Virus record (IMG/VR): IMGVR_UViG_3300028920_000004 | Coordinates: 1-64,000 of that record | DNA length: 64,000 nucleotides | Source: a virus | Strand: one strand, 5' to 3' | Shown: one piece after another, positions 31,317 through 47,466 of the stretch | Layout: the number at the start of each line of letters is the position of its first letter | Position numbering within the stretch: position 1 is the stretch's first letter | Position numbers and translations under genes: made by a program | The notes under the pieces: generated by a model | Seen by the model: the letters and a program-made list of their open reading frames with translations, nothing else | Told to the model about the DNA's origin: nothing | The model's database searches: none

Positions 31317-32665
31317 TAATTATTATGGAAGAAACTTATCCTTCTATATATGAATATTATGATTATTTAATTAAGACTTATATATCCAATCTATCAGATT
31401 ATAGTGATTGGATTTCTACTGAAAGAATTGATAATTTTTATTCTAAAAACCAACCTATACGATATAGAATTCCTTTCAATACTCATGATGAATTCGGAAA
31501 CGAAAAAACCGAAAGTGAATGGGTATGGGTTACTAAAGAACAATTAGCTATTGCTCTTTTGCTCAAAGAAGCTCTCCTACAACAATATGATAGATTTCCT
31601 AGTCTAGATAATTTACAATTTCAAGATGAAATATGGTATAATGATTCAAGTGATGATTATAGATGGGCATGTTTTAAATTAATGGATAGTCCTGCACATG
31701 CTTTTTATAATGATTTCTCTACTGAAGGAATGGGATTCGCTAGTTCTACTTGTGTAGTAGATGTTCCTATATATCCTTATTACAGTTGTTGTAGTATAAA
31801 AGGATATAGGATTCCTTATATATGGGCTAAAACATGGATAAAACAACCTAACAGATTTTCAGGATTACAAATAAGATTTGAAGAAAGAACATATATCAAA
31901 ACTTCATCTTCTCCAGATATTCCTACCTTTGTAACCGATGGCAGAAAAAACTTAGAAACTTGGTATAAACCTGTCCAAAGATACTATCTCTATTATAATA
32001 CAGGTCAAAGGTATGGACAATATTATGTAGATTCTCAATTATGTAGAAAATCATGTCCTATTAATGACCGATATTATTCTCCAGGTTTAGGGGAATATGC
32101 TGGAGACCGACCAGATATTTGTAAAATATGGACAAATATAGGAACTGGCACTTGTTCTGATTATGGACTTCCTAATGATGGATATGAATGTAGAGAAGGA
32201 TTATATTATGTTTATCAATGTGCAGAATATGGCTATGATTGTAGACCTTATTATGATTGGATAGGTGGAGGAGGAGTTACTTATTATGATGATAGAACTC
32301 ATCCTGATTTAAGAGGAGCCAATAACCAAATTATAACTCCATATCCTCATGGAGGTTCTTGGTATCTACAAAATCCTTTAGATGCTGTAGATTTATGTGC
32401 TGTATGTTCTTCAGGAAGTCAAAGCGATAAATCAGGAGTAGATAATGAAGACATAGAAGAAATTTGGGTTAGAGCTTATATTGTAGATAGTAAGGGAAAT
32501 GAAATTACATTTGATAAAACTTTAGGAGCCAGCGAAGGAATTCAAAATGCAGAATTTGCGTATGACCAAGTAATTAATATTTTAAGAACTATCCATGAAA
32601 AAATAGAATCAGATGGAGATTTTACTTATAATCTATATTATTATGGTGGTCGAGGAACTGCTTAA
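31304..32665 (+). CDS. Tyr/Cys-rich hypothetical protein, last gene of + operon
   Basis: Long ORF; start probably 31325. Confidence 0.6.
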   Translation: MGGVIIIMEETYPSIYEYYDYLIKTYISNLSDYSDWISTERIDNFYSKNQPIRYRIPFNTHDEFGNEKTESEWVWVTKEQLAIALLLKEALLQQYDRFPSLDNLQFQDEIWYNDSSDDYRWACFKLMDSPAHAFYNDFSTEGMGFASSTCVVDVPIYPYYSCCSIKGYRIPYIWAKTWIKQPNRFSGLQIRFEERTYIKTSSSPDIPTFVTDGRKNLETWYKPVQRYYLYYNTGQRYGQYYVDSQLCRKSCPINDRYYSPGLGEYAGDRPDICKIWTNIGTGTCSDYGLPNDGYECREGLYYVYQCAEYGYDCRPYYDWIGGGGVTYYDDRTHPDLRGANNQIITPYPHGGSWYLQNPLDAVDLCAVCSSGSQSDKSGVDNEDIEEIWVRAYIVDSKGNEITFDKTLGASEGIQNAEFAYDQVINILRTIHEKIESDGDFTYNLYYYGGRGTA

Positions 32666-33404
32666 AATAATCACCTTTTTTTAAAGCTTTACATTTAATA
32701 GTTTTTTTTATTATTTCTTTTCTTAATCTTTTTTGATTATATTTAGAATTGGACAATCGTTTAAAAAATTCTTCATAACTTATATTAGGAAACAAAGTTA
32801 AATTACTATCTCCTACCACTATAATCTTACATTTTTCTTCATTCTGAAAATATCCAAAATCTATCATTTGTTTATTAGGACTATTATAATAGGCATCTTT
32901 GCCTATTCCTCTATGATTAATTTCTCCTTGATAATAATGAGTTAAATTCCTATTAAATTTCTTTTTATTTTTATTCTTTTTTAATTTGCCATAATCATAC
33001 CCTAATAAATAAATATTGCCTTTATCTATCAAATAAATAGCTAAAGAAAGTGTAAAAACTCCTGCCAAATTTTTTCTATATACTCCATCTCTTAAATCTC
33101 TATTATAATGACCACTAGCATACAATCTTAAAGTATTTGGATAAGGAACTTCATCTTTACTTCTATATGTTCCAATTAATAAAGGCAAAGAATCAATTTT
33201 ATCATATTCGTGTTCATAAAATCCTTGATTGCTTTGTTTTGTTGGGTTATAATCTACATAAGAAGTAAAAGTAGAATCAAAATGTTTATAAGCATAATTT
33301 ATAGTAATAACAAATTTATCTTTAATCTTATCTTTTAATCCTTGGCTTAATCCATCTTTAATAGAATAACCCCCTCCAATTATAATTACTTCATTGGGTA
33401 TCAT
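32622..33404 (-). CDS. Maf/MptE-like (GT29/GT42-related) ulosonic acid transferase candidate
   Basis: VIIIGGGYSI...VITINYAY...IYLLGYDY...HYY. Confidence 0.6.
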   Translation of the reverse strand: MIPNEVIIIGGGYSIKDGLSQGLKDKIKDKFVITINYAYKHFDSTFTSYVDYNPTKQSNQGFYEHEYDKIDSLPLLIGTYRSKDEVPYPNTLRLYASGHYNRDLRDGVYRKNLAGVFTLSLAIYLIDKGNIYLLGYDYGKLKKNKNKKKFNRNLTHYYQGEINHRGIGKDAYYNSPNKQMIDFGYFQNEEKCKIIVVGDSNLTLFPNISYEEFFKRLSNSKYNQKRLRKEIIKKTIKCKALKKGDYFKQFLDHHNNIDYK

Positions 33405-34183
33405 ATTTTACTCCAAGCTTCACTTATGATTTTTATAATATTTTCCATATCATCTAAAGGTAATTGCGTAGCACTATCAGATATTGCTTTATCTGGTTCG
33501 GGATGAACTTCAATAAATATTCCGTCAACATATCCAGTAGCTATTGCTCCTTTTATCATAGGAATTACAAATTCTCTATTTCCTCCTGATTTTCCTCCTT
33601 TAGATGGAATTTGTTGGCTATGTGTAGCATCGAAAATAATAGGATAATTTCCAAATTTTTTCATAATCATAAAAGACCTAAAATCTACTATAAGGTTATT
33701 ATATCCAAAACAAGTACCCCTTTCCGTTATCATAATATTCTTATTTCCAGTAGCTTCTACCTTCTCTATGACATATTTTATATCCCAAGGAGAAAGAAAT
33801 TGACCCTTTTTTATGTTGACTTTTCGAGCATATCTTCCAATAGTGTGAATTAAGTCTGTTTGTCGGCACAAAAAGGCTGGAATTTGGACAATATCAGCTA
33901 TTAGAGCTACTTTTTTGGCCTCTTCGACTGTATGGGTATCTGTTAAAATCTTAATGCCTTGTGCCTTGATTCTGCTTAAAATTCCTAATCCAGTTTCTAA
34001 TCCTACTCCTCTAAGTGAATTATTAGAGGTTCTATTAGCTTTATCATAGGAAGCTTTAAATATGAACTCTATATTATCATATTTATCGGTAATTTCTTTA
34101 AGCTTTTCTGCGGTTTTTCGTGTGGTGGTTTCATCTTCGATGGCACAATTACCAGCAATTAGAATAAGTTTTTTATTTTTCAT
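33401..34183 (-). CDS. kdsA: 3-deoxy-D-manno-octulosonate 8-phosphate synthase
   Basis: IAGNCAIE, KASYDKANRTS, QIPAFLCRQTDL, KKGQFLSP, ERGTCFGYNNL, DATHS, EVHPEP. Confidence 0.95.
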   Translation of the reverse strand: MKNKKLILIAGNCAIEDETTTRKTAEKLKEITDKYDNIEFIFKASYDKANRTSNNSLRGVGLETGLGILSRIKAQGIKILTDTHTVEEAKKVALIADIVQIPAFLCRQTDLIHTIGRYARKVNIKKGQFLSPWDIKYVIEKVEATGNKNIMITERGTCFGYNNLIVDFRSFMIMKKFGNYPIIFDATHSQQIPSKGGKSGGNREFVIPMIKGAIATGYVDGIFIEVHPEPDKAISDSATQLPLDDMENIIKIISEAWSKI

Positions 34184-34193
34184 TTGCTATCCT

Positions 34194-34595
34194 TTATAAT
34201 TCTAACATTCCTTTCTTCTTCATTTCTGGTTCAGTATATTCTTTCCCTTTTATAACTTTCCCTCCTATAGATTCTCTATTAATATCATTAGGGTCTATTT
34301 TACCCTTTTCTACAAAGGCTAGTTCTACCATTATACTATCTTTTACCGCAAAAAATCTATGTTTGACTGGAGGACGGACTTCAAATATATCTCCTGGTTT
34401 TAAAACTTTTGACCCTCTTTCCGTTTCTATTCTTACCGCACCTTTAATAACTGCAAAACGATTTATTTTTTTACTATGGGTATGGGTCGAACAAAAATAA
34501 TTTTTCTTAACATTTAGTAGGTCTATCTCTGAAGTTCTGGTAAGAAGCAATCTTTGTCTAGTTCCCCAAATTTTGAATACGCTACTATCGTCCAT
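34194..34595 (-). CDS. Cupin-domain protein (sugar isomerase-like)
   Basis: KIWG...CSTHTH..K...G...LKPGD..V.P..KHRF. Confidence 0.75.
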   Translation of the reverse strand: MDDSSVFKIWGTRQRLLLTRTSEIDLLNVKKNYFCSTHTHSKKINRFAVIKGAVRIETERGSKVLKPGDIFEVRPPVKHRFFAVKDSIMVELAFVEKGKIDPNDINRESIGGKVIKGKEYTEPEMKKKGMLEL

Positions 34596-34598
34596 GAA

Positions 34599-34757
34599 TT
34601 ATTCCTCCTCTGATAATATCTTAGTTCTGTCCTTAATTACTTTTAGAGAATCTTTACCTCTTTTTCTAACCACATAATCGTAATCTTCTATCTCATCTTC
34701 TAATACCTTTTCTCTTTTATCCAAAACTAACATCTTAACATTTTTAAGGATTCTCAT
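34599..34757 (-). CDS. Small hypothetical protein, 52 aa (not in ORF track)
   Basis: MRILKNVKMLVLDKREKVLEDEIEDY...; fills the gap between genes. Confidence 0.45.
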   Translation of the reverse strand: MRILKNVKMLVLDKREKVLEDEIEDYDYVVRKRGKDSLKVIKDRTKILSEEE

Positions 34758-35712
34758 GAGTTTCTAATACCCTTTCTGTTTGGTTAATAAAGTTTTTAAT
34801 ATCTTCTAATTTAATCGCTACTGCAAGAGAAGGATATTTTTCTACATCTTGAAAAATAAATCCTTCTACATTATATATAATACCTACAACCACTCCTACT
34901 ATTTGTCCTTGTCTATTTACTACCATTCCTCCAGAATTACCAGGAAAGGTTGGAGCACTTATAAGCATGTAATAGTTATAACTATCATTATATTTTCTTT
35001 TTATATAATTTGATACTATTCCTCGTTGTATGGTATAATGGAAACAATAAGGATGCCCTACAGTATATATTTCAGACCCTTTAGCTGGTATTTTTTTAGA
35101 TATATTAATAGCTGATACCTTTTGAATAGGTTTTTTTAGTCTTATAATAGATAAATCTAAATTATCAGCTTTAAAAATATTAGAATTTTCTATTTCAAAA
35201 AATTCTTGAATATCGTCATTTAAATTTACCACTACTCTATATTTATCAGAATTTTTAACCACATGTTTTGCGGTTAAAATCCATATATAATTTTCATCTA
35301 TTTGATATATTGTTCCTGTACCTCCTACTTTTCCGCATATAATTTCTACTGTAGCTTTTTGTAAATCTATAAAACTTGGAGTTTTTACATACTCATCTAT
35401 TATGTTGTCATATATTATCTGTTGTATGCTTACTTCATTTAACATCTCTCTATTAGTAGATATTAAACTATCTACTATCTTTATCTTTTTATTTATTTTT
35501 TGAAAATTATTATCAGATTTTTCATCTACATTTTTAATCTTCTTCTTTTCTTTGACTAAATGATTTTCCATCATCCTTATCCTATCACCTAAATGCTTAT
35601 TAATATTTGTTACATTTTCTATAAATATTCCTCCCATAATTAAAACCCCTACCAAAATTCCTATAAATCCTACTATTACCAATTTCTTCATTTTACTCTC
35701 ACTTCCTTTCAT
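34744..35712 (-). CDS. Membrane-anchored trypsin-like (S1/HtrA-type) serine protease
   Basis: N-terminal TM, LTAKHV, DLSII, GNSGG triad motifs. Confidence 0.9.
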   Translation of the reverse strand: MKGSESKMKKLVIVGFIGILVGVLIMGGIFIENVTNINKHLGDRIRMMENHLVKEKKKIKNVDEKSDNNFQKINKKIKIVDSLISTNREMLNEVSIQQIIYDNIIDEYVKTPSFIDLQKATVEIICGKVGGTGTIYQIDENYIWILTAKHVVKNSDKYRVVVNLNDDIQEFFEIENSNIFKADNLDLSIIRLKKPIQKVSAINISKKIPAKGSEIYTVGHPYCFHYTIQRGIVSNYIKRKYNDSYNYYMLISAPTFPGNSGGMVVNRQGQIVGVVVGIIYNVEGFIFQDVEKYPSLAVAIKLEDIKNFINQTERVLETHENP

Positions 35713-36206
35713 ATTTTAAGCCAATCCCAATTCCTAAAATATTCTTTAAGAAAAGTATTGACATTTTTATGGTAATTATTATCTGAAATCAAAAAATCAG
35801 TATCAAAAAAATGCCACTGTTGTTTATACCAAAATACACAAATACAATGCCCTCCTTGATTATCATTGTGCATTAAATATAAATCGCTTGGAATATTAAG
35901 TTCTTGTAATAATGCTTTAGATAAAATAGCAAAATCTTCACAGTCTCCATATTTAAATTCTATAGTTTCTAAAGGAGTTTGCCAAAAATCATATTTATAG
36001 ACTAAACTTTCGGATTTATATGTTATATTGGTTATTAACCATATTTTTATATCTTCAGGTGTTTTGATATTATTTTCAGATATAATATGTTGTATTTTAT
36101 ATCTATTTCCAGATTCAAAATATTTTATTACTTTGTCATAATGAGGATTATTAGATAATAACATAATCATCATATATGCCAAAAGTATTTTATTATAAAA
36201 TTTCAT
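35709..36206 (-). CDS. Transglutaminase-like cysteine peptidase (BTLCP)
   Basis: DFWQTPLET...GDCEDFA...HCICV...FD. Confidence 0.85.
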   Translation of the reverse strand: MKFYNKILLAYMMIMLLSNNPHYDKVIKYFESGNRYKIQHIISENNIKTPEDIKIWLITNITYKSESLVYKYDFWQTPLETIEFKYGDCEDFAILSKALLQELNIPSDLYLMHNDNQGGHCICVFWYKQQWHFFDTDFLISDNNYHKNVNTFLKEYFRNWDWLKI

Positions 36207-36207
36207 A

Positions 36208-37083
36208 CTAATCCCCCATAACTTTCCTTAATCTTTTATTTGTTTTCTTCATTTTACAGTTCCAATAATTAGTAAAAACTTTTTTCATATCTCTAGTAGC
36301 CACTACTAATTGTTTCAAATTATATTTATCTTTAGCCAATGTTTTAAATTTTTTTAACCCTCTTTTTCTATATTTTTCATATTCTTTTGGTTTATATTCT
36401 ATATATTTACCAGAAATATCAATATTATAAAAAGATTTCCAATTTTTATTTTTAACTCTATATGCCCAATCTATATGTTCAGCCAATTTTAAATTTTCAT
36501 CCCATTTAATATCTATAAGCATTTTAGTTTTTGCTATAAAAAAATTTCTATGAATGTCTACTGGTTGGAACATATTTCCTTCAAATATTAGATAAGGTCT
36601 TTTTGGACAATCCAATTTAAAATGTTTATTTGGGATTAATTCAATATCTCCTTCCCAAGGTACTCTTCCATTTATATCGAATCCGATAGTACCATATTTT
36701 TCATTACTATCTAAAAATCTTATAATATTATTAATATCATATTTATCAGTAAACAATAAAGAATCTGCACTTATCCAACAATATTCATATCCTTTTTCTT
36801 TAGCTTTTTTAACTAAAAAGTTTCTAGCATAACTTAATCCACAATCAAAAGGTAAATTATAATAAGTTATACCATCTCTAAGTTGTCCGTACCCATAATC
36901 TGTAATATTCATACCAAAATTAGAAAATCCTTGTAATTTATCATTATCAGTTTTATAACTTTGATTTCCTACAAAGATATGATAATTCGGATTCCAATTA
37001 TCTAATATAGATTGGACAGATTTAATTAATAAGTCTTCTCTCAAAAATGTAGTTATAATTATCGCTGTTTTATTTTTTGTCAT
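36208..37083 (-). CDS. Glycosyltransferase family 2
   Basis: IIITTFLR, PFDCGLSYARN, WDENLKLAEH. Confidence 0.85.
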   Translation of the reverse strand: MTKNKTAIIITTFLREDLLIKSVQSILDNWNPNYHIFVGNQSYKTDNDKLQGFSNFGMNITDYGYGQLRDGITYYNLPFDCGLSYARNFLVKKAKEKGYEYCWISADSLLFTDKYDINNIIRFLDSNEKYGTIGFDINGRVPWEGDIELIPNKHFKLDCPKRPYLIFEGNMFQPVDIHRNFFIAKTKMLIDIKWDENLKLAEHIDWAYRVKNKNWKSFYNIDISGKYIEYKPKEYEKYRKRGLKKFKTLAKDKYNLKQLVVATRDMKKVFTNYWNCKMKKTNKRLRKVMGD

Positions 37084-37498
37084 AATAAACCTCTAAAATA
37101 GTCCTATATACTAACATATTAGGTAAATAATTATTAAAAATTTCAGCATCTTCTCCGTTAAATATTTTACTTAATGCTCCTGCTACTCCTGCACTCCTAC
37201 TTATACCTGCTTCACATTGACAAATAACTAAATTAATATTATTCTTATATTTGTTTATAAAATTAAGAATATTTTTAGCATCTTCTTGTGTGAATAATTT
37301 TACTTTTATGTCAGAATTAGGCATATGTAAACCATCTAAATCATGAAAATCTAACCAAAGTATATCTAAACAATTTGCTTGTGAGGCTATCTTTCCTAAT
37401 TCTATAGGATATTTTGGACTTCTTATAGAAATTATTATATGAGGTTTATTTTCTTGATAATTTTTTATTTCTCTTTCACTCATTACTAAAAATTTCAT
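37070..37498 (-). CDS. CX5R protein-tyrosine/dual-specificity phosphatase-like protein
   Basis: CEAGISRS, FHD, PN..VY. Confidence 0.85.
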   Translation of the reverse strand: MKFLVMSEREIKNYQENKPHIIISIRSPKYPIELGKIASQANCLDILWLDFHDLDGLHMPNSDIKVKLFTQEDAKNILNFINKYKNNINLVICQCEAGISRSAGVAGALSKIFNGEDAEIFNNYLPNMLVYRTILEVYYDKK

Positions 37499-37507
37499 AA
37501 TATTTCC

Positions 37508-37705
37508 TTAATATTGTATAGGGCTTCGAGCCAATTCTTTTATATCTTTTTTTCTACAATGTGGACATCTTACTTTCCCTGTTTTTCCATTAGGTCTTGA
37601 CCATCTTCCATTTTCTAATAAAATAGTTCCTGTTTTAAAAAGTCTAGTAAATTCTTTATTACAATTATTACACCTATACTTAACTAAAAATTTTTTATTT
37701 TTCAT
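37508..37705 (-). CDS. Zinc-ribbon protein
   Basis: CNNC ... CPHC. Confidence 0.7.
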   Translation of the reverse strand: MKNKKFLVKYRCNNCNKEFTRLFKTGTILLENGRWSRPNGKTGKVRCPHCRKKDIKELARSPIQY

Positions 37706-37708
37706 AGT

Positions 37709-38287
37709 TTACTCCTTATATCCATATTTTATTGCCATTCCTCTTATCATATCTGTAAAAACTGGACTAATTTTATATAAATCTTCCCAAATTAATTTTC
37801 TATGGATTCTCATATTAGCCCTACTTACTATTGGTCTTTTTTTATTTTTTATTCCTAATTCTTTGCACCATTTATTCCATACTTTAGGAAGTTCTTCTAT
37901 CTTATATCTCCAAGAAGCTTTAGATTCTATAACCAAATTCCAACAATACCATGACCGCATACAATTATAAATACTTTGATTTCTATGTTTTAAAGGGTCA
38001 TCAAAAGGCACATATTTATTTATATATTCAAAACTTTGATTCCAAAGAGTAGTAGAAGAAGCAATAACATTTAAAGGATGTCTTACTTGATGAATTATTT
38101 TATCAAAATTGCATTTAATAATATTCTCAGGGGAAGGTTTAGGAAACTCTCCATCCACACAATGCTTCCAAGAAACTGTATATTTATGCCCACTTCTTTC
38201 AAACATTGAATCTTCTCCTAAAGCTCTAAGAAGTTTATAAGTATACATAGTGGCTGACCTAGGATGTCCTGTAATAAGATATTTCAT
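37709..38287 (-). CDS. Sulfotransferase-like protein
   Basis: 5'-PSB loop ITGHPRSAT; 3'-PB QVRHPL..IAS. Confidence 0.75.
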   Translation of the reverse strand: MKYLITGHPRSATMYTYKLLRALGEDSMFERSGHKYTVSWKHCVDGEFPKPSPENIIKCNFDKIIHQVRHPLNVIASSTTLWNQSFEYINKYVPFDDPLKHRNQSIYNCMRSWYCWNLVIESKASWRYKIEELPKVWNKWCKELGIKNKKRPIVSRANMRIHRKLIWEDLYKISPVFTDMIRGMAIKYGYKE

Positions 38288-38721
38288 TATTTCCCTTCCT
38301 TGTTTATTTTCATTATACGTTCCACTTCTTCAATTAATTCTTCTGCACTTCTATAATTATGTTTATAATGAAAATTAATAGCTTTATCATCAAATATAAT
38401 ATCAAAATAAGGTTTAAATCTACTATCACATAAATTAGGGTCTCTTGGAGGTTGTCTATTTATAGCATGATATTTAAAATTATTATCTTTTAACCATTTT
38501 TTTAATTTAGGAGTACACATCCTACCAGTAAAAAGACCTATCCAATATCCTTTATCATAATAATGCTTCATAACATTTCTTATAGAAGCTACAGGACTTC
38601 CTAATTTATCAAACTCCCAAGGTCTAGTATAAGTAGCTATAACAGAATCAAAGTCAAACATTAGATAGCCTTTATATTGTAACATTTTATTCCTCCAAAT
38701 AGGCTTCCCATTTAGTTCCAA
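38287..38721 (-). CDS. HAD-family phosphatase
   Basis: FDFDSVI, FTGR, KP, FDDKA. Confidence 0.8.
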   Translation of the reverse strand: MELNGKPIWRNKMLQYKGYLMFDFDSVIATYTRPWEFDKLGSPVASIRNVMKHYYDKGYWIGLFTGRMCTPKLKKWLKDNNFKYHAINRQPPRDPNLCDSRFKPYFDIIFDDKAINFHYKHNYRSAEELIEEVERIMKINKEGK

Positions 38722-39358
38722 TTAATTTTTTCTTGATATAATTATAATTAATTATTAGTTTTTCTAAAGATTCTTTATTTTGTTTTTTAGTTACTGGTTT
38801 TAAATTTCTAACTTTAACTCCTAAAAATTTTTGTATCTTTTTTAATTCTTTGCTTAAATCTTTACATAAATCTTCGTAATAAACTGTAATTATAGGATTA
38901 TCTTTGAAATAATTATCTCCCCATTCTTCATTATTCTTTATTCCATTAATACGTTGAGCTAAATCTATATAATCTACTTTTATCATTTTTTTGTTAAGAG
39001 AGGTTCTTTTTCTACCTCTTATTAATCTCCACCAACCAGTTTTACACGCAATAAGATGAGATACTACTGTTCTTAATTTATTTTGTCTTTTAAGATGTAT
39101 AACTGAAATATTTTTACTTTTGCACCATTTCCAAAAATCTGCATTTGCATGGTTATAAAATATTTTAACACCTGTTACTTTATAACGTAAATTTCCCCAT
39201 ATTCTTTTTTTCTCAGAAGCTATAGTTCTATTTCGTCTTTTTAATTTTTTATGGTCAAAGGTTTCATTATAACACCTTATATCAGAATGTTTATTTAAAG
39301 CTGATTGTATTATAGTAGAACCTGTTCTTTCTCTTGCTAATATAATAAATTTCTTCAT
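38687..39358 (-). CDS. Stf0-family sulfotransferase
   Basis: ARERTGST, VIHLKRQNKLRTVVS, YYEDL, KQN...I.NY. Confidence 0.85.
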   Translation of the reverse strand: MKKFIILARERTGSTIIQSALNKHSDIRCYNETFDHKKLKRRNRTIASEKKRIWGNLRYKVTGVKIFYNHANADFWKWCKSKNISVIHLKRQNKLRTVVSHLIACKTGWWRLIRGRKRTSLNKKMIKVDYIDLAQRINGIKNNEEWGDNYFKDNPIITVYYEDLCKDLSKELKKIQKFLGVKVRNLKPVTKKQNKESLEKLIINYNYIKKKLIGTKWEAYLEE

Positions 39359-40533
39359 TATTTATCCCTTTTTATTATAGTTAGAACATCTTCATATCCT
39401 TGTTTTAATAAATAATCTACTACAGGAAAAGATACTAATACCTCTAAATGGTTCTTATTAAAAATTTTAGTATTTTCTGGCATATTTTTATATGAAATAT
39501 TTTCTCCTATTTTTTCTTTAGAATATTTTGGATTATCAACTGCTACTTCTAAACGAGGGGTTTCTAAATCTCCATATACCACCCATCTATGACAAGTTTC
39601 TCCTAATAAGCAAATATATTTATTATATTTTTGTAACTCTTTAATCAACATTAAATTCTTTTTTGTGTAAACTGCTTTTTGAATAGTATCATCTTTTGAG
39701 GTTTCTATTTCAATTTTAAAATTTTTAGATTTAAGTTCTCTGAATTTATGCTCTGATACTTTATGTAAATCTTTTAAAGTTTTTAACCCCATTTTTTCAA
39801 GATAAATTTTCCAGCTATCTCTTTTATTATCTGTTCTGGTTTTGGCATATTTACTAGTATCATCTTTCATTTGATGATTAACTACTACTGAGGGCACATA
39901 AGTAACTTTCCATTTAGTTTTCTTTAATCTAAAAAAGAAATCATTATGCTCAACCATTTTTAACCTTTCATCCCACATTATATCCTCAAATATTTCTCTT
40001 TTGGCTAAAAAGAAATTTAAAGCTAATTGAGAATAATAATATTTAATATATGGATATTCTTTCGTAGTTTTCCATTCCCGACTTTCTTTATCTATTAAAT
40101 AAAATTGATGATTAATATTATCTAGGTACATATCATAAGTATGAATATCTCTATTATTAACCCTACCTGCTGATATGCCTATATATTTATCTTCATTTAA
40201 AACTTGTTTAAGAGTATTCAAATTTGTCTGTTCATAAAAATCAAAATCATTATCTATTATCAATATATAAGGTTCTGTTGATTGTTTGATTAAAAAATTA
40301 CGAGCAAAAGACAATCCACAATTAAAAGGTAGATTATAAATCTTATGACCTTCTTTTTCTAATTCTTTAAAAAATCCCATTTCTCTAATATTAAATTTGT
40401 CTTGATTACCGACATAAAATCTTATTGTTGTAGGATAATATCTACGAATAGATTTTATTTCTTCTATGGTTTTATTTATCCTAGTAAAAGAAGGTATTAT
40501 AACTGCTATATCTGGAATTTTCTTATAATACAT
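39358..40533 (-). CDS. Glycosyltransferase family 2 with C-terminal extension
   Basis: PFNCGLSFARN, IIDND, WDERLKMVEH. Confidence 0.85.
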   Translation of the reverse strand: MYYKKIPDIAVIIPSFTRINKTIEEIKSIRRYYPTTIRFYVGNQDKFNIREMGFFKELEKEGHKIYNLPFNCGLSFARNFLIKQSTEPYILIIDNDFDFYEQTNLNTLKQVLNEDKYIGISAGRVNNRDIHTYDMYLDNINHQFYLIDKESREWKTTKEYPYIKYYYSQLALNFFLAKREIFEDIMWDERLKMVEHNDFFFRLKKTKWKVTYVPSVVVNHQMKDDTSKYAKTRTDNKRDSWKIYLEKMGLKTLKDLHKVSEHKFRELKSKNFKIEIETSKDDTIQKAVYTKKNLMLIKELQKYNKYICLLGETCHRWVVYGDLETPRLEVAVDNPKYSKEKIGENISYKNMPENTKIFNKNHLEVLVSFPVVDYLLKQGYEDVLTIIKRDK

Positions 40534-41570
40534 TAAATTTCCTTTATTATTATTCTATCTTCATAAGGATGTTGTAAAACTATTCTCTTAATATCTGTAA
40601 ATAAATTCCATTTTTTATGTTTTACATTTTTCAAAATACATTCGCTATAGAAATTATATTTTAAATAATATAAAAATCTTTTAACTTTGTTCATATCAGG
40701 ATATTTAGTAAACATATTTATTATAGCTTCTATATCATATATAGATGATACTTTTTGATTTATATCTTTGAAATTATAAAAAGCTTCTCCTACTATTACA
40801 ACTGGTTTTTTCCACATCATAGCTTGTAAACCAATTCCAGAATTAATGGTCAATATTAAATCAGAATATTCTATCATTGATTTATAATGAAAATTATCTA
40901 CAATTCTCAAATTTTTAGTTTCTTTGTTAATATGATATTTATCTTCTTTTTCTATTGGATGATTCTTTACTAAAAATAACCAAGTAGGATATTCTTGTGC
41001 CAATTTCTTAATCAATATATTAAAATTAGTAGTATTTTCAATCCAATTACTCCATAAAAGAGTAACAGTATCATCATGAACTTGTAAAGGAACAAAAATA
41101 ATTCTATTATATTTATTTAGATTTATATTTAACATATCACAAAAAAGCCCAAAAGAAGGTCTATTATTTTTTTGAGTTTCTAATGAAGTATTGTCTTTTT
41201 TAAAATTATCAATATATTGATTTATTTTTTCTTTTTGAACTTCTGTTAAAAGATGATTCCATCTACTTTCATCATAAGAAGAACTATCTACCAAAAATCC
41301 ATTTTTATCCATAAATACAGTATTAGGCAAAGCCCCTCTTTCTATAATATAGACTGGATGATTAATTTTTCTAAGATATTCATAAAGTTCAAATTTCCAT
41401 TTATTTCTGTCAGTAACTAAATATCCATAAGGATTCCATAGAAGAACAGGATTTTCTGGAGAAATATTATCACCTGCTCTAAGACTTTTTTTAGAGATAT
41501 TTAAATGTTTTCTAAGCAATTTTACACAAGGATGATTAAAATCTGGAGTTAAAAATTTAAAAGTATTCAT
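40533..41570 (-). CDS. KpsS/KpsC-like (GT107) beta-Kdo transferase
   Basis: IERGALP, FVPLQVHDD (QxxxD), KNHP, TINSGIGLQAM..KPV..G.AFY. Confidence 0.8.
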   Translation of the reverse strand: MNTFKFLTPDFNHPCVKLLRKHLNISKKSLRAGDNISPENPVLLWNPYGYLVTDRNKWKFELYEYLRKINHPVYIIERGALPNTVFMDKNGFLVDSSSYDESRWNHLLTEVQKEKINQYIDNFKKDNTSLETQKNNRPSFGLFCDMLNINLNKYNRIIFVPLQVHDDTVTLLWSNWIENTTNFNILIKKLAQEYPTWLFLVKNHPIEKEDKYHINKETKNLRIVDNFHYKSMIEYSDLILTINSGIGLQAMMWKKPVVIVGEAFYNFKDINQKVSSIYDIEAIINMFTKYPDMNKVKRFLYYLKYNFYSECILKNVKHKKWNLFTDIKRIVLQHPYEDRIIIKEI

Positions 41571-42223
41571 TATATTTCCTTTGGATAATTAAAAGTCTTA
41601 AAATCTTCTTTATACCAAGCTATGATAGTTGATTTTTTCATTTCGTTATTATACAATTCTTTATAATTTTTGTTTTTAGATTCTCTAATTTTAGGTAATT
41701 CTTTTATAATTATATTTGCATTTCTAAACGTCAATCTTAATCCATAATTAAAATCTAATTCAAACTTAATAATTTTATTTATTTTAAATTCTTCTACAAT
41801 ATGACTTTGAATATAAGAATGAGCATCTTTATTGTAAATTCCTCTCGGCAAATAAGTATGTAAAAATTTTAAAAAACTAATACCTTCTTCCCAATCTTTC
41901 CTATATATTCCATAATTGGCTATTGTAGGAACTTTTTTTCCTCTAAATTTTTCTATTTTTTCAGGAGTTGACTGAATTTTATCAAGATATAAAGAAGCAA
42001 TTCTGGTATAGGGATTTCTCACAACTATAAATTTTTTATAATCTGAAGGAATATCTTTAGCATTTATTAATAAATGCCTGGTAGAATCATGAATGTTATT
42101 TTCTTTTATTTCTAATCCCATACTATTTGCTATAATAAATTTAATAGTAGAACTACCAGCTTTTCCATTTACAATATATGCTAATTTACTATTAGGTATT
42201 AATATTGCTTTTATAGGTAACAT
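41570..42223 (-). CDS. Carbohydrate sulfotransferase (Sulfotransfer_2 type)
   Basis: KAGSSTIK, VRNPYTRIASLY, H...Q, Y..DF..FNY. Confidence 0.85.
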   Translation of the reverse strand: MLPIKAILIPNSKLAYIVNGKAGSSTIKFIIANSMGLEIKENNIHDSTRHLLINAKDIPSDYKKFIVVRNPYTRIASLYLDKIQSTPEKIEKFRGKKVPTIANYGIYRKDWEEGISFLKFLHTYLPRGIYNKDAHSYIQSHIVEEFKINKIIKFELDFNYGLRLTFRNANIIIKELPKIRESKNKNYKELYNNEMKKSTIIAWYKEDFKTFNYPKEI

Positions 42224-44155: not shown

Positions 44156-44683
44156 TCATATTATCTTATTATCCTCTAAATATTTTATTACTTTATTTGT
44201 AGATTCTTCTATAGTTTCTGTTTCAGTATCACATATAATTTCAGGATTTTTAGGGGCTTCATATGGGTCATCAAATCCAGTAAAGCCTTTAATTTTACCT
44301 TTTAATGCTTTTTTCCACATTCCTTTAACATCTCTTTTTATACATTCTTTTACAGAGGCTTTGACAAAAACTTCGACAAAATTTGTAACATTATTTCTTA
44401 TATTCTCTCTTGTTTTTGCATAAGGACTTACAAATGAAGCAATTACTACTACTCCATTTCTTGATAAAAGTTTAGATACAAAATTTATTCTATTTATATT
44501 TTTATCTCTATCCTCTTTAGAAAATCCCAAATCATTACTTAATTTTCCTTTTCTTACTATATCCCCATCTAATCGTTCTACTCTTTTTCCTCTGTTATAT
44601 AGTTCTTTAGCCAATTCATCTGCTATTGAACTTTTTCCTGAACAAGGAATTCCAGTAAACCAAACTACACATCCTTTTTTCAT
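44156..44683 (-). CDS. cysC: Adenylyl-sulfate (APS) kinase
   Basis: WFTGIPCSGKS, LDGD, DLGFSKEDR, SFVSP, RDVKG, FTGFDDPYEAP. Confidence 0.95.
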   Translation of the reverse strand: MKKGCVVWFTGIPCSGKSSIADELAKELYNRGKRVERLDGDIVRKGKLSNDLGFSKEDRDKNINRINFVSKLLSRNGVVVIASFVSPYAKTRENIRNNVTNFVEVFVKASVKECIKRDVKGMWKKALKGKIKGFTGFDDPYEAPKNPEIICDTETETIEESTNKVIKYLEDNKII

Positions 44684-44699: not shown

Positions 44700-45647
44700 T
44701 TATATTTTATTTATTATAGTAGCAATTAGATATACAATAGAAAATCCCAAAATTGGAGACATTATCCAAGTTAAAAAACATTTTTTAATAGTTTTTATTC
44801 CTAATTTCTTTATACCTTTTCCTCTATTAGCTACCCCAAATCCAAAAACTGCAAAAGAATTTAATTGTACTAAAGATTGAGGAAGACCTATCAAAGATGC
44901 ACTAATTAATAAACTACCTGTTACTAAACTTATAATACCTGCCGATATTAAATCTAATTGTGTAACTTTTTTTCCTATAGACTGTAAATTTCCTTTGCCT
45001 AAAACAAATCCTCCTATTCCAAAAAAAGGAGCAAGTATAAAAGTCGCTAATTTACTTGTCATAATTTGTGCTCCTGCAAAAACACCTGAAGCATTAGCTA
45101 CATTATTAGACCCTATGCTAAAAGCAGTATAACAACTTGTAAGTATATCCCAAAATTTAATAGAATTATGTTTAAAGTCTTTTATTTTTGGATAAATAAA
45201 TTTACCACATAAAAAAGTAATTAAAAAAGCAGAAAAAGGTAACACTATCCATAAAGGAATCATTCTTTGAAAAATTTCCCATTTAACTGCATTATGATAA
45301 GCTCCATACCCTACAATACTAAAAACTGTAATTTGACTTGTAGAGGCTGGTATTTTAAATAAATTAGCTAAAAATAAAGCAATAGTAGTTCCAGTAAAAA
45401 TGATTAATGCACTTTTTATGTTCAATAATTCTGGATTTATTAATCCTTTACTGATTACTTTCACTACTCTAAATCCTAATAAATAAGCCCCTAATAATAC
45501 AAATATTGCAAATAAAATAGAAGCTTTTTTTCTTGATATTATCCCTCCTCCATATTCTGCTGAAAAAGTAGGAGCAATACCAGACCCTCCCATATTAACT
45601 GCAAATAAAATTCCTAAAAATATTAAACCTATTACTAATAAATTCAT
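44700..45647 (-). CDS. PiT-family anion permease, CysP (sulfate) type
   Basis: Multi-TM; N-terminal NMGGSG..(S)A.YG.G resembles B. subtilis CysP NIGASG rather than PitA; second signature GSNNVANA; PASTSQ. Confidence 0.8.
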   Translation of the reverse strand: MNLLVIGLIFLGILFAVNMGGSGIAPTFSAEYGGGIISRKKASILFAIFVLLGAYLLGFRVVKVISKGLINPELLNIKSALIIFTGTTIALFLANLFKIPASTSQITVFSIVGYGAYHNAVKWEIFQRMIPLWIVLPFSAFLITFLCGKFIYPKIKDFKHNSIKFWDILTSCYTAFSIGSNNVANASGVFAGAQIMTSKLATFILAPFFGIGGFVLGKGNLQSIGKKVTQLDLISAGIISLVTGSLLISASLIGLPQSLVQLNSFAVFGFGVANRGKGIKKLGIKTIKKCFLTWIMSPILGFSIVYLIATIINKI

Positions 45648-45664
45648 AAATTCTCCATTATAAT

Positions 45665-46303
45665 TTAAAGTTTTTTTATTTTCGGAAAAATTTCTAAAGC
45701 CAATTTAAGAATCATATATGGACTATAATGATTCATGTTTAATAAATATTTTTTTATATTTTGCTTATCCATTAATATAGTAGGATTAAGAAACTCAGTA
45801 TTTAAATTATTATGACAATATTCATCTAAAGTTTGTATCATTTTTGTTCTTGAAGGTTTATTGTATATATTATGATTACTCACAAACAATATAGGTTTAT
45901 TATCTAACAATTTATGAATTTTTTTTAATTTGGCTACATAATTATCAGAATAAACTTTTTTATATTTAGTATGTTTATAAAATTTAGGAAAAGGAGATAA
46001 ATAATAACCATGTTCGCACAAATAATTAGTAACTCCGCTAATCTCTATTATATATTTATCTATTTTATTAATAGGAATAGTTATTTTTTTTGTTTTAATA
46101 CATTCTAAATTTCCACTCCGTTTATTTATAATATCCTTATGATTAGGTCTAATACCTTTTAAAATTTCTATAGCTTGAATAATTTGTTCTAACGTATGCA
46201 AATGCGGTAAAATCATATATAATTCCATAGAAGTATCTTTACATCGTCTATATACTCTGGTTGGATTTTTTACTCTGCAACTTCCAATAGTTAATATTTT
46301 CAT
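45665..46303 (-). CDS. Hypothetical protein, possibly SGNH-like glycan-modifying enzyme
   Basis: N-terminal IGSCR, IEIS, C-terminal NHYS. Confidence 0.45.
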   Translation of the reverse strand: MKILTIGSCRVKNPTRVYRRCKDTSMELYMILPHLHTLEQIIQAIEILKGIRPNHKDIINKRSGNLECIKTKKITIPINKIDKYIIEISGVTNYLCEHGYYLSPFPKFYKHTKYKKVYSDNYVAKLKKIHKLLDNKPILFVSNHNIYNKPSRTKMIQTLDEYCHNNLNTEFLNPTILMDKQNIKKYLLNMNHYSPYMILKLALEIFPKIKKL

Positions 46304-46944
46304 TAATTCTTTTCATCCTCTATATTAAAAGGTATTACTAAATTTGCTAAAGATTTGCTCTGGCATACACTATTATATTCTCTTTCCACTACATATTTCC
46401 TAAATTTATTTTCGGGATTTTCTTTTCCTCTATTAGCTCTAAATTTAAAAGTATCTTCAGGATTTCCATCTAGATAAACCCCATAATCAAATAAATTACC
46501 ATATAAAGCATATAACCCTTCTACTATTAAAAGGTCAATATTTTTAGAGTTACAAATAGAAAATTCAATACTATCTATATACATATGTATTCTTTGAATA
46601 TATAATTTCTTTTCATTATTTTTAAAATTCTTTAATACTTTATTAAATTTCTCCCACATTATTTCTTCTTTACCTATTATATCAGTTTCTTTTCTAACTT
46701 TATTTCTTATATGCCAATTAGTCTTATAATAATCATCTAGATGTAATACCTTATTTTTAATATTATATTTTTTATATAACTGTTCTTGAATAACATAAGC
46801 ACATTCTGTTTTTCCAGTTCCGCTTACTCCTGTAATAGCTAATATAAATTTACTGTCTTTTTTATATTTTTTAAGAACTTCCGCTAAAATAATTTCTGCT
46901 TTTTTTTCATGCAAAGGTAATATATTTACTCTATCTCCAATCAT
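46303..46944 (-). CDS. Uridine kinase/PRK-like P-loop kinase
   Basis: GVSGTGKT, LHLDDYY, IVEGLYA. Confidence 0.75.
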   Translation of the reverse strand: MIGDRVNILPLHEKKAEIILAEVLKKYKKDSKFILAITGVSGTGKTECAYVIQEQLYKKYNIKNKVLHLDDYYKTNWHIRNKVRKETDIIGKEEIMWEKFNKVLKNFKNNEKKLYIQRIHMYIDSIEFSICNSKNIDLLIVEGLYALYGNLFDYGVYLDGNPEDTFKFRANRGKENPENKFRKYVVEREYNSVCQSKSLANLVIPFNIEDEKN

Positions 46945-46958
46945 CTTATCCTCACTTT

Positions 46959-47114
46959 TTAGACAAATTCATATTTTCCATTACCTACATATTTTCTTTC
47001 ATATTTTTTTTGACAAAAAGGACAATTAAATTTACCTTCACCTATCATTTTAACCACAAATATATGTCCACATTCACAATTTATAGTTATAGTATTATAT
47101 CTTTTATTTTCCAT
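46959..47114 (-). CDS. Small zinc-ribbon protein, 51 aa (not in ORF track)
   Basis: CECG ... CPFC. Confidence 0.6.
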   Translation of the reverse strand: MENKRYNTITINCECGHIFVVKMIGEGKFNCPFCQKKYERKYVGNGKYEFV

Positions 47115-47466
47115 TATTTTTTCTCCTTATTTCGGTAGCACTAATTGATTCTGTTTCTTTATCCAATTTAATTTCATTTATGCCCCAACCAACTTTTCTT
47201 CCATGGCAAACTTCTTTAATATCTGGAAGAGTAACATATTTAACCCTTCCGCTTTTAATTTCTTCCCTAAATTCTTTTCTTATCATTTCAACTCTTTCTC
47301 TAACAGTATAAGGATTTTTATCATCTATTTTAGTATCTCTTATTCCTATACAAACTTTTCCATTTTTATTTAAAACAGTTCTTATTAATTGTATATGTCC
47401 AGCGTGAAGCGGTTGCCATCTCCCAATAAATAAACTATATTCTCCTGTAAAATTATTATTAGACAT
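47104..47466 (-). CDS. Small HIGH-motif nucleotidyltransferase (candidate minimal sulfate adenylyltransferase)
   Basis: FIGRWQPLHAGH, NPY...ER, HGRKVG, ISATEIR. Confidence 0.8.
   Translation of the reverse strand: MSNNNFTGEYSLFIGRWQPLHAGHIQLIRTVLNKNGKVCIGIRDTKIDDKNPYTVRERVEMIRKEFREEIKSGRVKYVTLPDIKEVCHGRKVGWGINEIKLDKETESISATEIRRKNNGK

What the first reader, a model, noticed from the sequence alone, without database searches (positions are those of the whole stretch)
47104..47466. 120-aa HIGH nucleotidyltransferase as a candidate minimal ATP sulfurylase
Seen: the window has no sat or cysDN, yet CysC needs APS. This ORF has GRWQPLHAGH, a HGRKVG segment and C-terminal ISATEIR. Established: Sat-type ATP sulfurylases belong to the HIGH superfamily, with HxxH, GRD and SGT..R motifs. 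Inference: it may be a stripped-down ATP sulfurylase that would normally be annotated as a cytidylyltransferase or NMNAT.
Basis: inference. Interest (0 to 1): 0.75.

Follow-up and report, generated by a model that had tools for sequence, protein, structure and literature searches.

The report
Candidate minimal ATP sulfurylase in phages
A 120-residue nucleotidyltransferase in this phage belongs to a large unnamed family that is almost always fused or adjacent to APS kinase in phages and tiny-genome bacteria lacking any known ATP sulfurylase, so it is probably a new, very small enzyme for the first step of making the sulfate donor PAPS.

Summary
The ORF (47104-47466, minus strand, 120 aa) and all three motifs are real. 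It is conserved, with over 590 matches in viral contigs.

By sequence and predicted fold it is a shortened relative of archaeal-type NMN adenylyltransferase, not a trimmed Sat. It keeps the ATP and catalytic motifs (GRxQPxHxGH, ISxTxxR). It has lost the roughly 27-residue segment after PDI and the C-terminal helices, and it has its own invariant R43 (IRDT) and G89-R90 (GRKVGW).

- An APS-kinase-family domain is fused (both orders) or adjacent in 112 of 126 homologous loci.
- 59 of 80 viral records with a full-length cysC carry the gene. None of 50 searched has Sat.
- Of 30 cellular genomes with it (mostly Patescibacteria), none has Sat and one has CysD. Other Patescibacteria with APS kinase have Sat or CysD beside it.
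- PAPS-type sulfotransferases are the commonest other neighbour (48 of 126 loci).
- The window's operon adds a CysP-like permease, CysC and two sulfotransferases.

Best reading (about 0.65): a new minimal ATP sulfurylase that forms a PAPS synthase with APS kinase. No enzyme activity has been shown, and I found no paper describing it. Earlier scan notes on this idea concern only this same genome.

The parts
47104..47466 (-). Mini HIGH-type nucleotidyltransferase, 120 aa; candidate minimal ATP sulfurylase.
   Evidence: ORF. PF01467 at 39.4 bits. Family alignment A1. AF2 model with pLDDT 88.
47395..47424 (-). GRWQPLHAGH (residues 15-24): the nucleotide-binding and transition-state motif, HxGH with an upstream Arg.
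   Evidence: G15, R16, H21, G23 and H24 are invariant in A1. The motif is shared with archaeal-type NMNATs (A4).
47332..47343 (-). IRDT (residues 42-45) after strand 2. It replaces the IGS(A/S)Q of NMNATs. R43 is invariant and is proposed (inference) to hold the sulfate.
   Evidence: A1 and A4.
47182..47205 (-). HGRKVGWG (residues 88-95): a family-specific loop with invariant G89, R90 and G93. It sits where NMNATs carry about 27 extra residues.
   Evidence: A1 and A4. It did not align to the Sat GRDHAG loop in hhalign.
47125..47145 (-). ISATEIR (residues 108-114): the second ATP-binding signature, ISxTxxR.
   Evidence: I108, S109 and R114 are invariant and T111 is nearly so. This is the only stretch that aligns to Sat profiles.
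46959..47114 (-). 51-aa Cys-rich (zinc-ribbon-like) ORF overlapping the transferase stop by 11 nt; function unknown.
   Evidence: In the nearest relatives L047 and L048 the APS kinase ORF carries a 75-residue N-terminal extension at the corresponding place.
44156..44683 (-). CysC, a full-length APS kinase with lid; the proposed downstream partner.
   Evidence: PF01583 at 197.7 bits. TIGR00455 at 212.7 bits, above the 138.7 cut-off.
44700..45647 (-). PiT/PHO4-family permease, closest to the CysP sulfate permease.
   Evidence: PF01384 at 127 bits. NF053884 SulfPermCysPBac at 215 bits, which is below its cut-off of 400.
38687..39358 (-). PAPS-type sulfotransferase (Sulfotransfer_3 / Stf0-like).
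   Evidence: PF13469 at 47 bits (cut-off 27) and PF09037 at 37 bits.
41570..42223 (-). Sulfotransferase family 2.
   Evidence: PF03567 at 44.1 bits, cut-off 22.

Best explanation
The 120-aa protein is a minimal sulfate adenylyltransferase (ATP + sulfate -> APS + PPi). It belongs to a distinct family that arose from archaeal-type NMN adenylyltransferases.

What the family kept and lost (shown): it kept the ATP-binding and catalytic core (GRxQPxHxGH, NPxT..ER, ISxTxxR). It lost the roughly 27-residue segment after PDI and the C-terminal helices. From my knowledge of the NMNAT structures, that lost segment holds the nicotinamide ribotide. It gained an invariant Arg after strand 2 (IRDT) and a GRKVGW loop.

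Proposed mechanism (inferred): only an oxyanion pocket remains where other family members hold the acceptor's phosphate, so sulfate itself attacks the alpha-phosphate of ATP. APS then passes to the neighbouring or fused APS kinase to give PAPS. APS kinase and the cell's pyrophosphatase would pull the unfavourable equilibrium.

In this phage the module sits with a CysP-like permease, CysC and at least two sulfotransferases in a Kdo/glycosyltransferase operon. It would therefore let the phage make PAPS for a sulfated glycan.
For: - Fusion: most longer homologues carry PF01467 + PF01583. Both domain orders occur (A2). Fused kinases P0146, P0129 and P0159 pass the apsK equivalog cut-off.
- Neighbourhood: an APS-kinase-family domain is fused (40) or lies within 1.5 kb (72) in 112 of 126 loci.
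- Kinase motifs: 106 of 116 partner kinases keep FSxxDR and 97 keep DGDxxR. PF01583 was the best Pfam hit in 7 of 8 sampled, and scored above its cut-off in all 8.
- Reverse test: 56 of 80 viral cysC loci have the gene within 5 kb, and 3 more have it elsewhere in the record.
- Missing enzyme: Sat was found in 0 of 30 carrier genomes and CysD in 1 of 30. Sat was found in 0 of 50 viral cysC records.
- Complementary distribution: in 301 sampled Patescibacteria, 9 credible APS kinases sit beside Sat and 1 beside CysD. The 2 genomes with the mini enzyme have neither. Fisher p = 3.6e-7.
- Consumers: sulfotransferases are the top other neighbour family, present in 48 of 126 loci. The closest relative L047 has the order ST-NT-CysC-x-ST. 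Sulfotransfer_3 occurs in 16 of 30 carrier genomes.
- Active site: catalytic motifs are invariant and the segment after PDI is deleted.
- Fold: the Sat catalytic domain is a recognisable fold relative (1v47_B, Z 7.7, 111 residues aligned).
- Phylogeny: the family forms a clade separate from NMNATs at 98% SH-aLRT, with several fusion and fission events.
Against: - No biochemical data exist for any member.
- The nearest relatives by sequence and fold are NMNAT and PPAT, not Sat. There is no sequence-level homology to Sat beyond ISxTxxR.
- Most partner kinases are a short form without the lid (only 14 of 116 keep KGxYK), and no short form has been characterised.
- The predicted fold has only three clear strands, with an unstructured stretch at residues 82-102. 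The protein may need a partner or oligomer to be active.
- Six complete cysC phages lack the gene, so phages can rely on host APS.
- In cultured Xylella, Xanthomonas and Stenotrophomonas phages the fusion sits next to a NADAR gene, with only a weak sulfotransferase-like neighbour.
- The MAGs are incomplete.
Confidence: 0.65

Rival explanations
1. It is an accessory or regulatory subunit of APS kinase rather than a sulfurylase. It might bind nucleotide, act as a scaffold, or act in trans as the lid for the lid-less kinases. APS would then come from the host.
For: The link to APS kinase is what the data show directly. Most partner kinases lack the lid. The fold is truncated. Some complete cysC phages do without it.
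Against: All catalytic residues of an active HIGH transferase are invariant. 29 of 30 carrier genomes have no other source of APS. The window's partner is a full-length, lidded CysC.
Confidence: 0.14
2. It is an NMN (or NaMN) adenylyltransferase for phage NAD salvage. The fused form would be a NadR-like pair of transferase plus kinase.
For: Its best family matches are archaeal NMNAT and NadM. Phages do carry NadM-type enzymes (H13-H17). A NADAR gene lies next to the fusion in Xylella phage Bacata.
Against: Scores are far below the NMNAT cut-offs (56 against 127, and 45.9 against 181). The segment after PDI and the C-terminal helices are deleted. The partner kinase belongs to the APS-kinase family, not the NadR ribosylnicotinamide-kinase type. 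No NAD-salvage genes appear among the frequent neighbours.
Confidence: 0.07
3. It is a small cytidylyl- or adenylyltransferase for a glycan precursor (TagD-like glycerol-3-phosphate or a sugar phosphate) used by the adjacent glycosyltransferases.
For: Its size matches TagD at about 129 aa. Weak matches exist to 2b7l and 1coz. The window operon is rich in glycan genes.
Against: Across 126 loci the constant partner is APS kinase, not glycan genes. NMNAT-type motifs fit better than cytidylyltransferase ones.
Confidence: 0.05
4. With the kinase it forms a CoA-type pair: a PPAT-like transferase plus a 3'-kinase acting on dephospho-CoA or another adenylylated compound.
For: PPAT is a close fold relative (4nah Z 9.9). 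APS kinase and dephospho-CoA kinase both phosphorylate an adenosine 3'-OH (established knowledge).
Against: The kinases keep APS-kinase motifs and hit PF01583 and TIGR00455, not CoaE. The linked neighbours are sulfotransferases and a CysP-like permease.
Confidence: 0.03

Closest known systems
Archaeal-type NMN adenylyltransferase (NadM N-domain; PDB 1f9a, 1ej2, 2qjo)
   Same: Shares the GRxQPxHxGH, NPxT..ER, PDI and ISxTxxR motifs and the Rossmann-like core. It is the best sequence and fold match (Z 10.1).
   Different: The mini enzyme is about 50-60 residues shorter. It lacks the roughly 27-residue segment after PDI and the C-terminal helices. It has IRDT in place of IGSxQ and its own GRKVGW loop. 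It scores far below the family cut-offs. It is linked to APS kinase, not to NAD genes.
Sat-type ATP sulfurylase (PF01747; PDB 1v47, 1j70, PAPSS1 1x6v)
   Same: Same superfamily fold (Z 6.2-7.7), with HxxH and ISxTxxR-type motifs. Like Sat it is fused or adjacent to APS kinase, which is the same reaction logic.
   Different: There is no PF01747 match. hhalign aligns only 23 columns. It has no QTRN or GRDHAG motifs (A3 against A1). It is about 105-120 aa, against about 210 for the Sat catalytic domain plus flanking domains.
CysDN ATP sulfurylase
   Same: Carries out the same proposed reaction, and CysN is often fused to CysC.
   Different: It has an unrelated fold (PAPS-reductase-like ATP pyrophosphatase plus GTPase). 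The mini enzyme has no GTPase partner. CysD is absent from the virus and from 29 of 30 carrier genomes.
Bifunctional PAPS synthases (animal PAPSS; Aquifex Sat-CysC)
   Same: One polypeptide joins an adenylyltransferase and an APS kinase, in either order.
   Different: The fusions here are only about 245-285 aa. They use the NMNAT-derived domain, and mostly a lid-less short kinase.

Membership tests
HIGH-signature nucleotidyltransferase superfamily (PF01467 CTP_transf_like) | Profile match above the gathering cut-off | tested here: met
   39.4 bits against 21. TIGR00125 at 37.9 bits against 27.7.
HIGH-signature nucleotidyltransferase superfamily (PF01467 CTP_transf_like) | HxGH and ISxTxxR signatures on a Rossmann-like core | tested here: met
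   HAGH at 21-24 and ISATEIR at 108-114 are invariant in A1. Fold matches.
Sat-type ATP sulfurylase (PF01747) | Match to the PF01747 catalytic-domain profile | tested here: not met
   There is no PF01747 hit for the protein or anywhere in the virus. hhalign of A1 against A3 gives probability 41% over 23 columns.
Sat-type ATP sulfurylase (PF01747) | QxRN sulfate and phosphosulfate-binding motif just before HxxH | tested here: not met
   Sat sequences have FQTRNxxHRxH (A3). The mini family has GRxQPxHxGH (A1).
Sat-type ATP sulfurylase (PF01747) | GRDHAG loop | tested here: inconclusive
   A GRKVGW loop with invariant G89, R90 and G93 exists. It was not aligned to GRDHAG by hhalign, and no model coordinates were available to compare positions.
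Sat-type ATP sulfurylase (PF01747) | Catalyses ATP + sulfate -> APS + PPi | not testable with these tools
   Only genomic linkage supports this.
Archaeal-type NMNAT (TIGR01527 / NF002243) | Score above the curated cut-off | tested here: not met
   45.9 against 181.2, and 56 against 127. Only profile positions 2-79 match.
Archaeal-type NMNAT (TIGR01527 / NF002243) | Segment after PDI (xTNSLWxxYV...) and the C-terminal helical region | tested here: not met
   Both are absent from all mini-family members aligned with six Patescibacteria NMNATs (A4). The family forms a separate clade at 98% SH-aLRT.
PAPS-synthase-type pairing (sulfate adenylyltransferase + APS kinase) | The partner is a genuine APS kinase | tested here: met
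   The window CysC scores 212.7 bits against 138.7. Fused P0146 scores 207.5, P0129 142 and P0159 140.9. Short lid-less partners score only 60-96 bits but keep DGDxxR and FSxxDR.
PAPS-synthase-type pairing (sulfate adenylyltransferase + APS kinase) | No other ATP sulfurylase in the same genome (non-orthologous displacement) | tested here: met
   Sat in 0 of 30 and CysD in 1 of 30 carrier genomes. Sat in 0 of 50 viral cysC records. The MAGs are incomplete.
Glycerol-3-phosphate cytidylyltransferase (TagD/GCT) | Closest family by sequence or fold | tested here: not met
   2b7l at E 1.3e-4 and 1coz at 3.4e-3 against 1f9a at 1.3e-12. Z 7.3 against 10.1.

The most novel reading that the evidence does not exclude
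There is a third, NMNAT-derived class of ATP sulfurylase of only about 105-120 residues. With a lid-less, roughly 140-residue APS kinase it forms the smallest known PAPS synthase, at about 245 aa when fused. In that pairing the two halves may complete each other's active sites. The class is widespread in phages and Patescibacteria. On this reading most 'phage cysC auxiliary metabolic genes' are self-contained sulfation modules feeding phage sulfotransferases, not aids to host sulfur assimilation.
Probability: 0.55. Interest if true: 0.85.

Novelty: new variant of a known kind. Interest (0 to 1): 0.8.

Why it matters
Two ATP sulfurylase types are known to me: Sat and CysDN. A third, far smaller type would fill a gap in pathway reconstructions. 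APS kinase and sulfotransferases appear in Patescibacteria and phages with no visible source of APS.

It would also change how phage cysC genes are read. They are currently counted as assimilatory sulfate-reduction auxiliary genes (PMC10914622). It points instead to widespread phage-directed sulfation of glycans or other targets.

A PAPS synthase of about 245 aa would also be a compact part for enzymatic or in-cell PAPS regeneration. Cultured phages carry the fusion (Xylella phages Sano, Salvo and Bacata; Stenotrophomonas phage DLP_6), so the idea can be tested directly.

Tried and rejected
- Complex prediction of the window CysC (A5) with the mini transferase (A1) returned no verdict, score 0.00. 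This is not evidence either way.
Neighbourhoods were instead analysed by ORF clustering in scripts.
- tblastn with the window's PiT, Sulfotransfer_2, PRK-like kinase, methyltransferase and GT2 proteins found none of them in the other loci at 1e-5. The permease linkage is therefore specific to this phage.
- Profile-profile comparison with Sat gave only the ISxTxxR motif, so the 'trimmed Sat' reading was rejected.
- Sat did not appear in the Foldseek list shown. It appeared only in the exhaustive VIA search, at Z 6-7.7.
- A random sample of 301 Patescibacteria held only 2 true mini enzymes. That is too few for a phyletic-profile statistic on its own, so it was combined with the 30 carrier genomes.
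- Six literature searches and the protein atlas ('cytidylyltransferase-like') gave no prior functional description.
- The extra domains of 'NT + other' fusions mostly had no family. One has a sub-threshold DHHA1 hit.
- No model coordinates were available to scripts, so no pocket geometry could be measured.

Full report
**Observation.** The ORF at 47104-47466 on the minus strand encodes 120 residues. It carries GRWQPLHAGH (15-24), HGRKVG (88-93) and ISATEIR (108-114). It lies in a tightly packed minus-strand operon of a complete 95,764-bp virus with direct terminal repeats and 25-30% G+C. The virus has no PF01747 (Sat) or PF01507 (CysD/CysH-type) match anywhere. Its CysC is genuine: TIGR00455 scores 212.7 bits against a cut-off of 138.7.

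**What the protein is by sequence and fold.** Pfam places only residues 12-64 in PF01467. NCBIfam's best matches are archaeal-type NMN adenylyltransferases, far below their cut-offs and covering only the first ~80 profile positions.

A profile of 28 family members (A1) finds the archaeal NMNATs 1f9a, 1ej2 and 4yp7 and then NadM, TagD and PPAT in the PDB. It finds no ATP sulfurylase. The AlphaFold model (pLDDT 88, pTM 0.77) matches NMNAT, NadM and PPAT best (Z 10.1, 9.8 and 9.9). Sat catalytic domains follow at Z 6.2-7.7 (1v47_B, 111 residues aligned, 22% identity).

Profile-profile comparison with eight Patescibacteria Sat domains (A3) aligns only the ISxTxxR motif, at probability 41%. The protein is therefore not a trimmed Sat. 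It is a shortened offshoot of the NMNAT branch of the same superfamily.

Alignment with six full-length Patescibacteria NMNATs (A4) shows what changed:
- GRxQPxHxGH, NPxT..ER, PDI and ISxTxxR are kept.
- IGS(A/S)Q after strand 2 becomes IRDT, with an invariant Arg.
- A segment of about 27 residues after PDI (xTNSLWxxYV...) is deleted. From my knowledge of the NMNAT structures, this segment carries the nicotinamide-contacting Asn and Trp.
- The C-terminal ~45 residues are deleted.
- A GRKVGW loop with invariant G89, R90 and G93 appears.

In a quick maximum-likelihood tree the 106 mini enzymes separate from the NMNATs at 98% SH-aLRT.

**Linkage to APS kinase.** Nearly all of the 94 longer homologues carry PF01467 together with PF01583. 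Both domain orders exist. P0136 and P0146 are transferase-kinase. P0123, P0129, P0159 and P0173 are kinase-transferase. P0146, P0129 and P0159 pass the apsK equivalog cut-off (A2).

I fetched 46 loci from genomes (mostly Patescibacteria MAGs) and the best 80 of more than 590 viral matches. A kinase of the APS-kinase family is fused in 40 of these 126 loci and lies within 1.5 kb in 72 more. Eight loci are 'transferase only', several of them at contig ends.

Among the best 150 representatives of a 1.84-billion-protein library, 72 stand alone, 55 are fused to the kinase and 23 are fused to something else. The tree needs several independent fusion or fission events.

The partner kinases come in two forms. 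One is full-length with the KGxYKKA lid. The other is a short form of about 146 aa without the lid. The short form still keeps the P-loop, DGDxxR (97 of 116) and FSxxDR (106 of 116), and it hits PF01583 above the gathering score.

**Reverse test.** I started from the window's CysC and took the 80 best full-length viral relatives. Of these, 56 have the mini enzyme within 5 kb, mostly directly adjacent. Three more have it elsewhere in the record. None of 50 such records has Sat. Six complete cysC phages lack the mini enzyme, so it is common but not obligatory.

**The missing enzyme.** Of 30 cellular genomes carrying the gene, none has Sat. Only one, a Thermoplasmatales MAG, has CysD.

In a random sample of 301 Patescibacteria, ten genomes have an APS kinase above the cut-off. 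Eight of these, plus one kinase truncated at a contig end, have Sat fused or adjacent. One has CysD beside it. The two genomes with the full-length mini enzyme have a short APS kinase next to it and neither Sat nor CysD. The contrast is 1 of 31 against 10 of 12, Fisher p = 3.6e-7. This is the pattern of non-orthologous displacement. The MAGs are incomplete, which weakens any single absence but not the contrast.

**Consumers of PAPS.**
- I clustered all ORFs within 6 kb of the gene. The commonest family after the transferase and kinase is a PAPS-type sulfotransferase (PF13469/PF00685).
- With iterative searches, 48 of 126 loci hold at least one, at a median distance of 454 nt.
- Sulfotransfer_3 is present in 16 of 30 carrier genomes, against 2 of 14 control genomes.
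- The closest relative (L047, 71% identity) has the order sulfotransferase, mini enzyme, CysC, unknown, sulfotransferase, next to the same SbcC-like gene as in the window.
- In the window, three genes have been inserted between the transferase and CysC. These are a PRK/Udk-like kinase, a TviD_N-like protein and a PiT permease closest to CysP.
- Downstream lie a methyltransferase, GT2s, a KpsS/C-like protein, KdsA and two sulfotransferases above threshold.

**Mechanism.** Three things are shown: the catalytic signature of an active HIGH transferase is invariant, the segment after PDI is gone, and the constant partner is APS kinase. The rest is inferred. The remaining pocket would take sulfate in place of an acceptor phosphate, with R43 and R90 as candidate ligands. 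APS would then be handed to the kinase, and pyrophosphatase and the kinase would pull the reaction. I put this at about 0.65.

**Rivals.**
- An accessory or lid-supplying subunit of the kinase (0.14).
- NMNAT or a NadR-like pair (0.07). Against this: sub-threshold scores, the deleted segment after PDI, and the wrong kinase family.
- A glycan-precursor cytidylyltransferase (0.05). Against this: the partner across loci is the kinase, not glycan genes.
- A CoA-type pair (0.03).

A caution applies. In cultured Xylella, Xanthomonas and Stenotrophomonas phages the ~245-aa fusion, annotated 'kinase' or 'adenylylsulfate kinase', sits next to a NADAR gene and only a weak Sulfotransfer_4-like ORF. The use of PAPS there is unclear.

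**Novelty.** Databases call these proteins cytidylyltransferase-like, NMNAT or adenylylsulfate kinase. Six full-text searches found no description of such an enzyme. A study of phage cysC treats it as an assimilatory auxiliary gene and does not mention a partner (PMC10914622). The library covers only open-access papers, so an earlier report cannot be excluded. Other notes from this scan on the same idea concern this same genome only.

**Not done or failed.**
- The complex prediction gave no verdict.

Noticed in passing
window 45665-46303 (-): A 212-aa protein with no Pfam hit resembles the TviD N-terminal domain and the SGNH/GSCFA-like fold in the ESM Atlas (score 0.95, TM 0.82). It is probably a glycan O-acetyltransferase inserted between the transferase and the permease.
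   Followed up: partly
window 46303-46944 (-): A PRK/uridine-kinase-like P-loop kinase (PF00485 at 29.9 bits) lies directly downstream of the transferase and the small Zn-ribbon ORF. tblastn found no counterpart in the 126 related loci, and its role is unknown.
   Followed up: partly
Partner kinases in L049-L126 and the proteins P0123, P0131, P0136, P0197, P0211: Most partner APS kinases are a short form (median 146 aa) lacking the ~20-residue KGxYKKA...FTG lid, but they keep the P-loop, DGDxxR and FSxxDR. To my knowledge this subfamily is uncharacterised, and it may depend on the transferase.
   Followed up: partly
L047 14844-15500 (+): The closest relative phage carries a CTP_transf_like + PEP mutase fusion (Fom1-like), with an aminotransferase and an ornithine cyclodeaminase, just downstream of its sulfation module. 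This suggests a phosphonate pathway in a phage.
   Followed up: no
P0232 (432 aa), P0230 and P0233, P0222 and P0262: Other fusions of the mini transferase exist. One has a sub-threshold DHHA1 domain (23.6 bits), which could be a pAp phosphatase or pyrophosphatase. Two are tandem duplications of the transferase. Two are fused to SAM methyltransferases.
   Followed up: partly
L223 (Xylella phage Bacata) 2555-4318; L224 (Stenotrophomonas phage DLP_6) 3590-4321: Cultured phages encode the kinase-transferase fusion (~245 aa, annotated 'kinase' or 'adenylylsulfate kinase'). In Bacata it follows a NADAR-domain gene and a weak Sulfotransfer_4-like ORF.
   Followed up: partly
window 32622-40533 (-): The rest of the operon holds KdsA (PF00793 at 227 bits), a cupin, a trypsin-like protease, a transglutaminase-like protein, three GT2s, a weak DSP-phosphatase-like ORF and a KpsS/C-like capsule protein. 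This fits a Kdo-containing, sulfated, O-acetylated and methylated glycan.
   Followed up: partly
G025 and G026 (Acidobacteriota MAGs, 4.3 and 5.6 Mb; loci L042, L043): Two large non-CPR genomes carry the mini transferase, with a sulfotransferase beside it in L042. They show neither Sat nor CysD above threshold, which is unexpected for free-living bacteria of that size.
   Followed up: no
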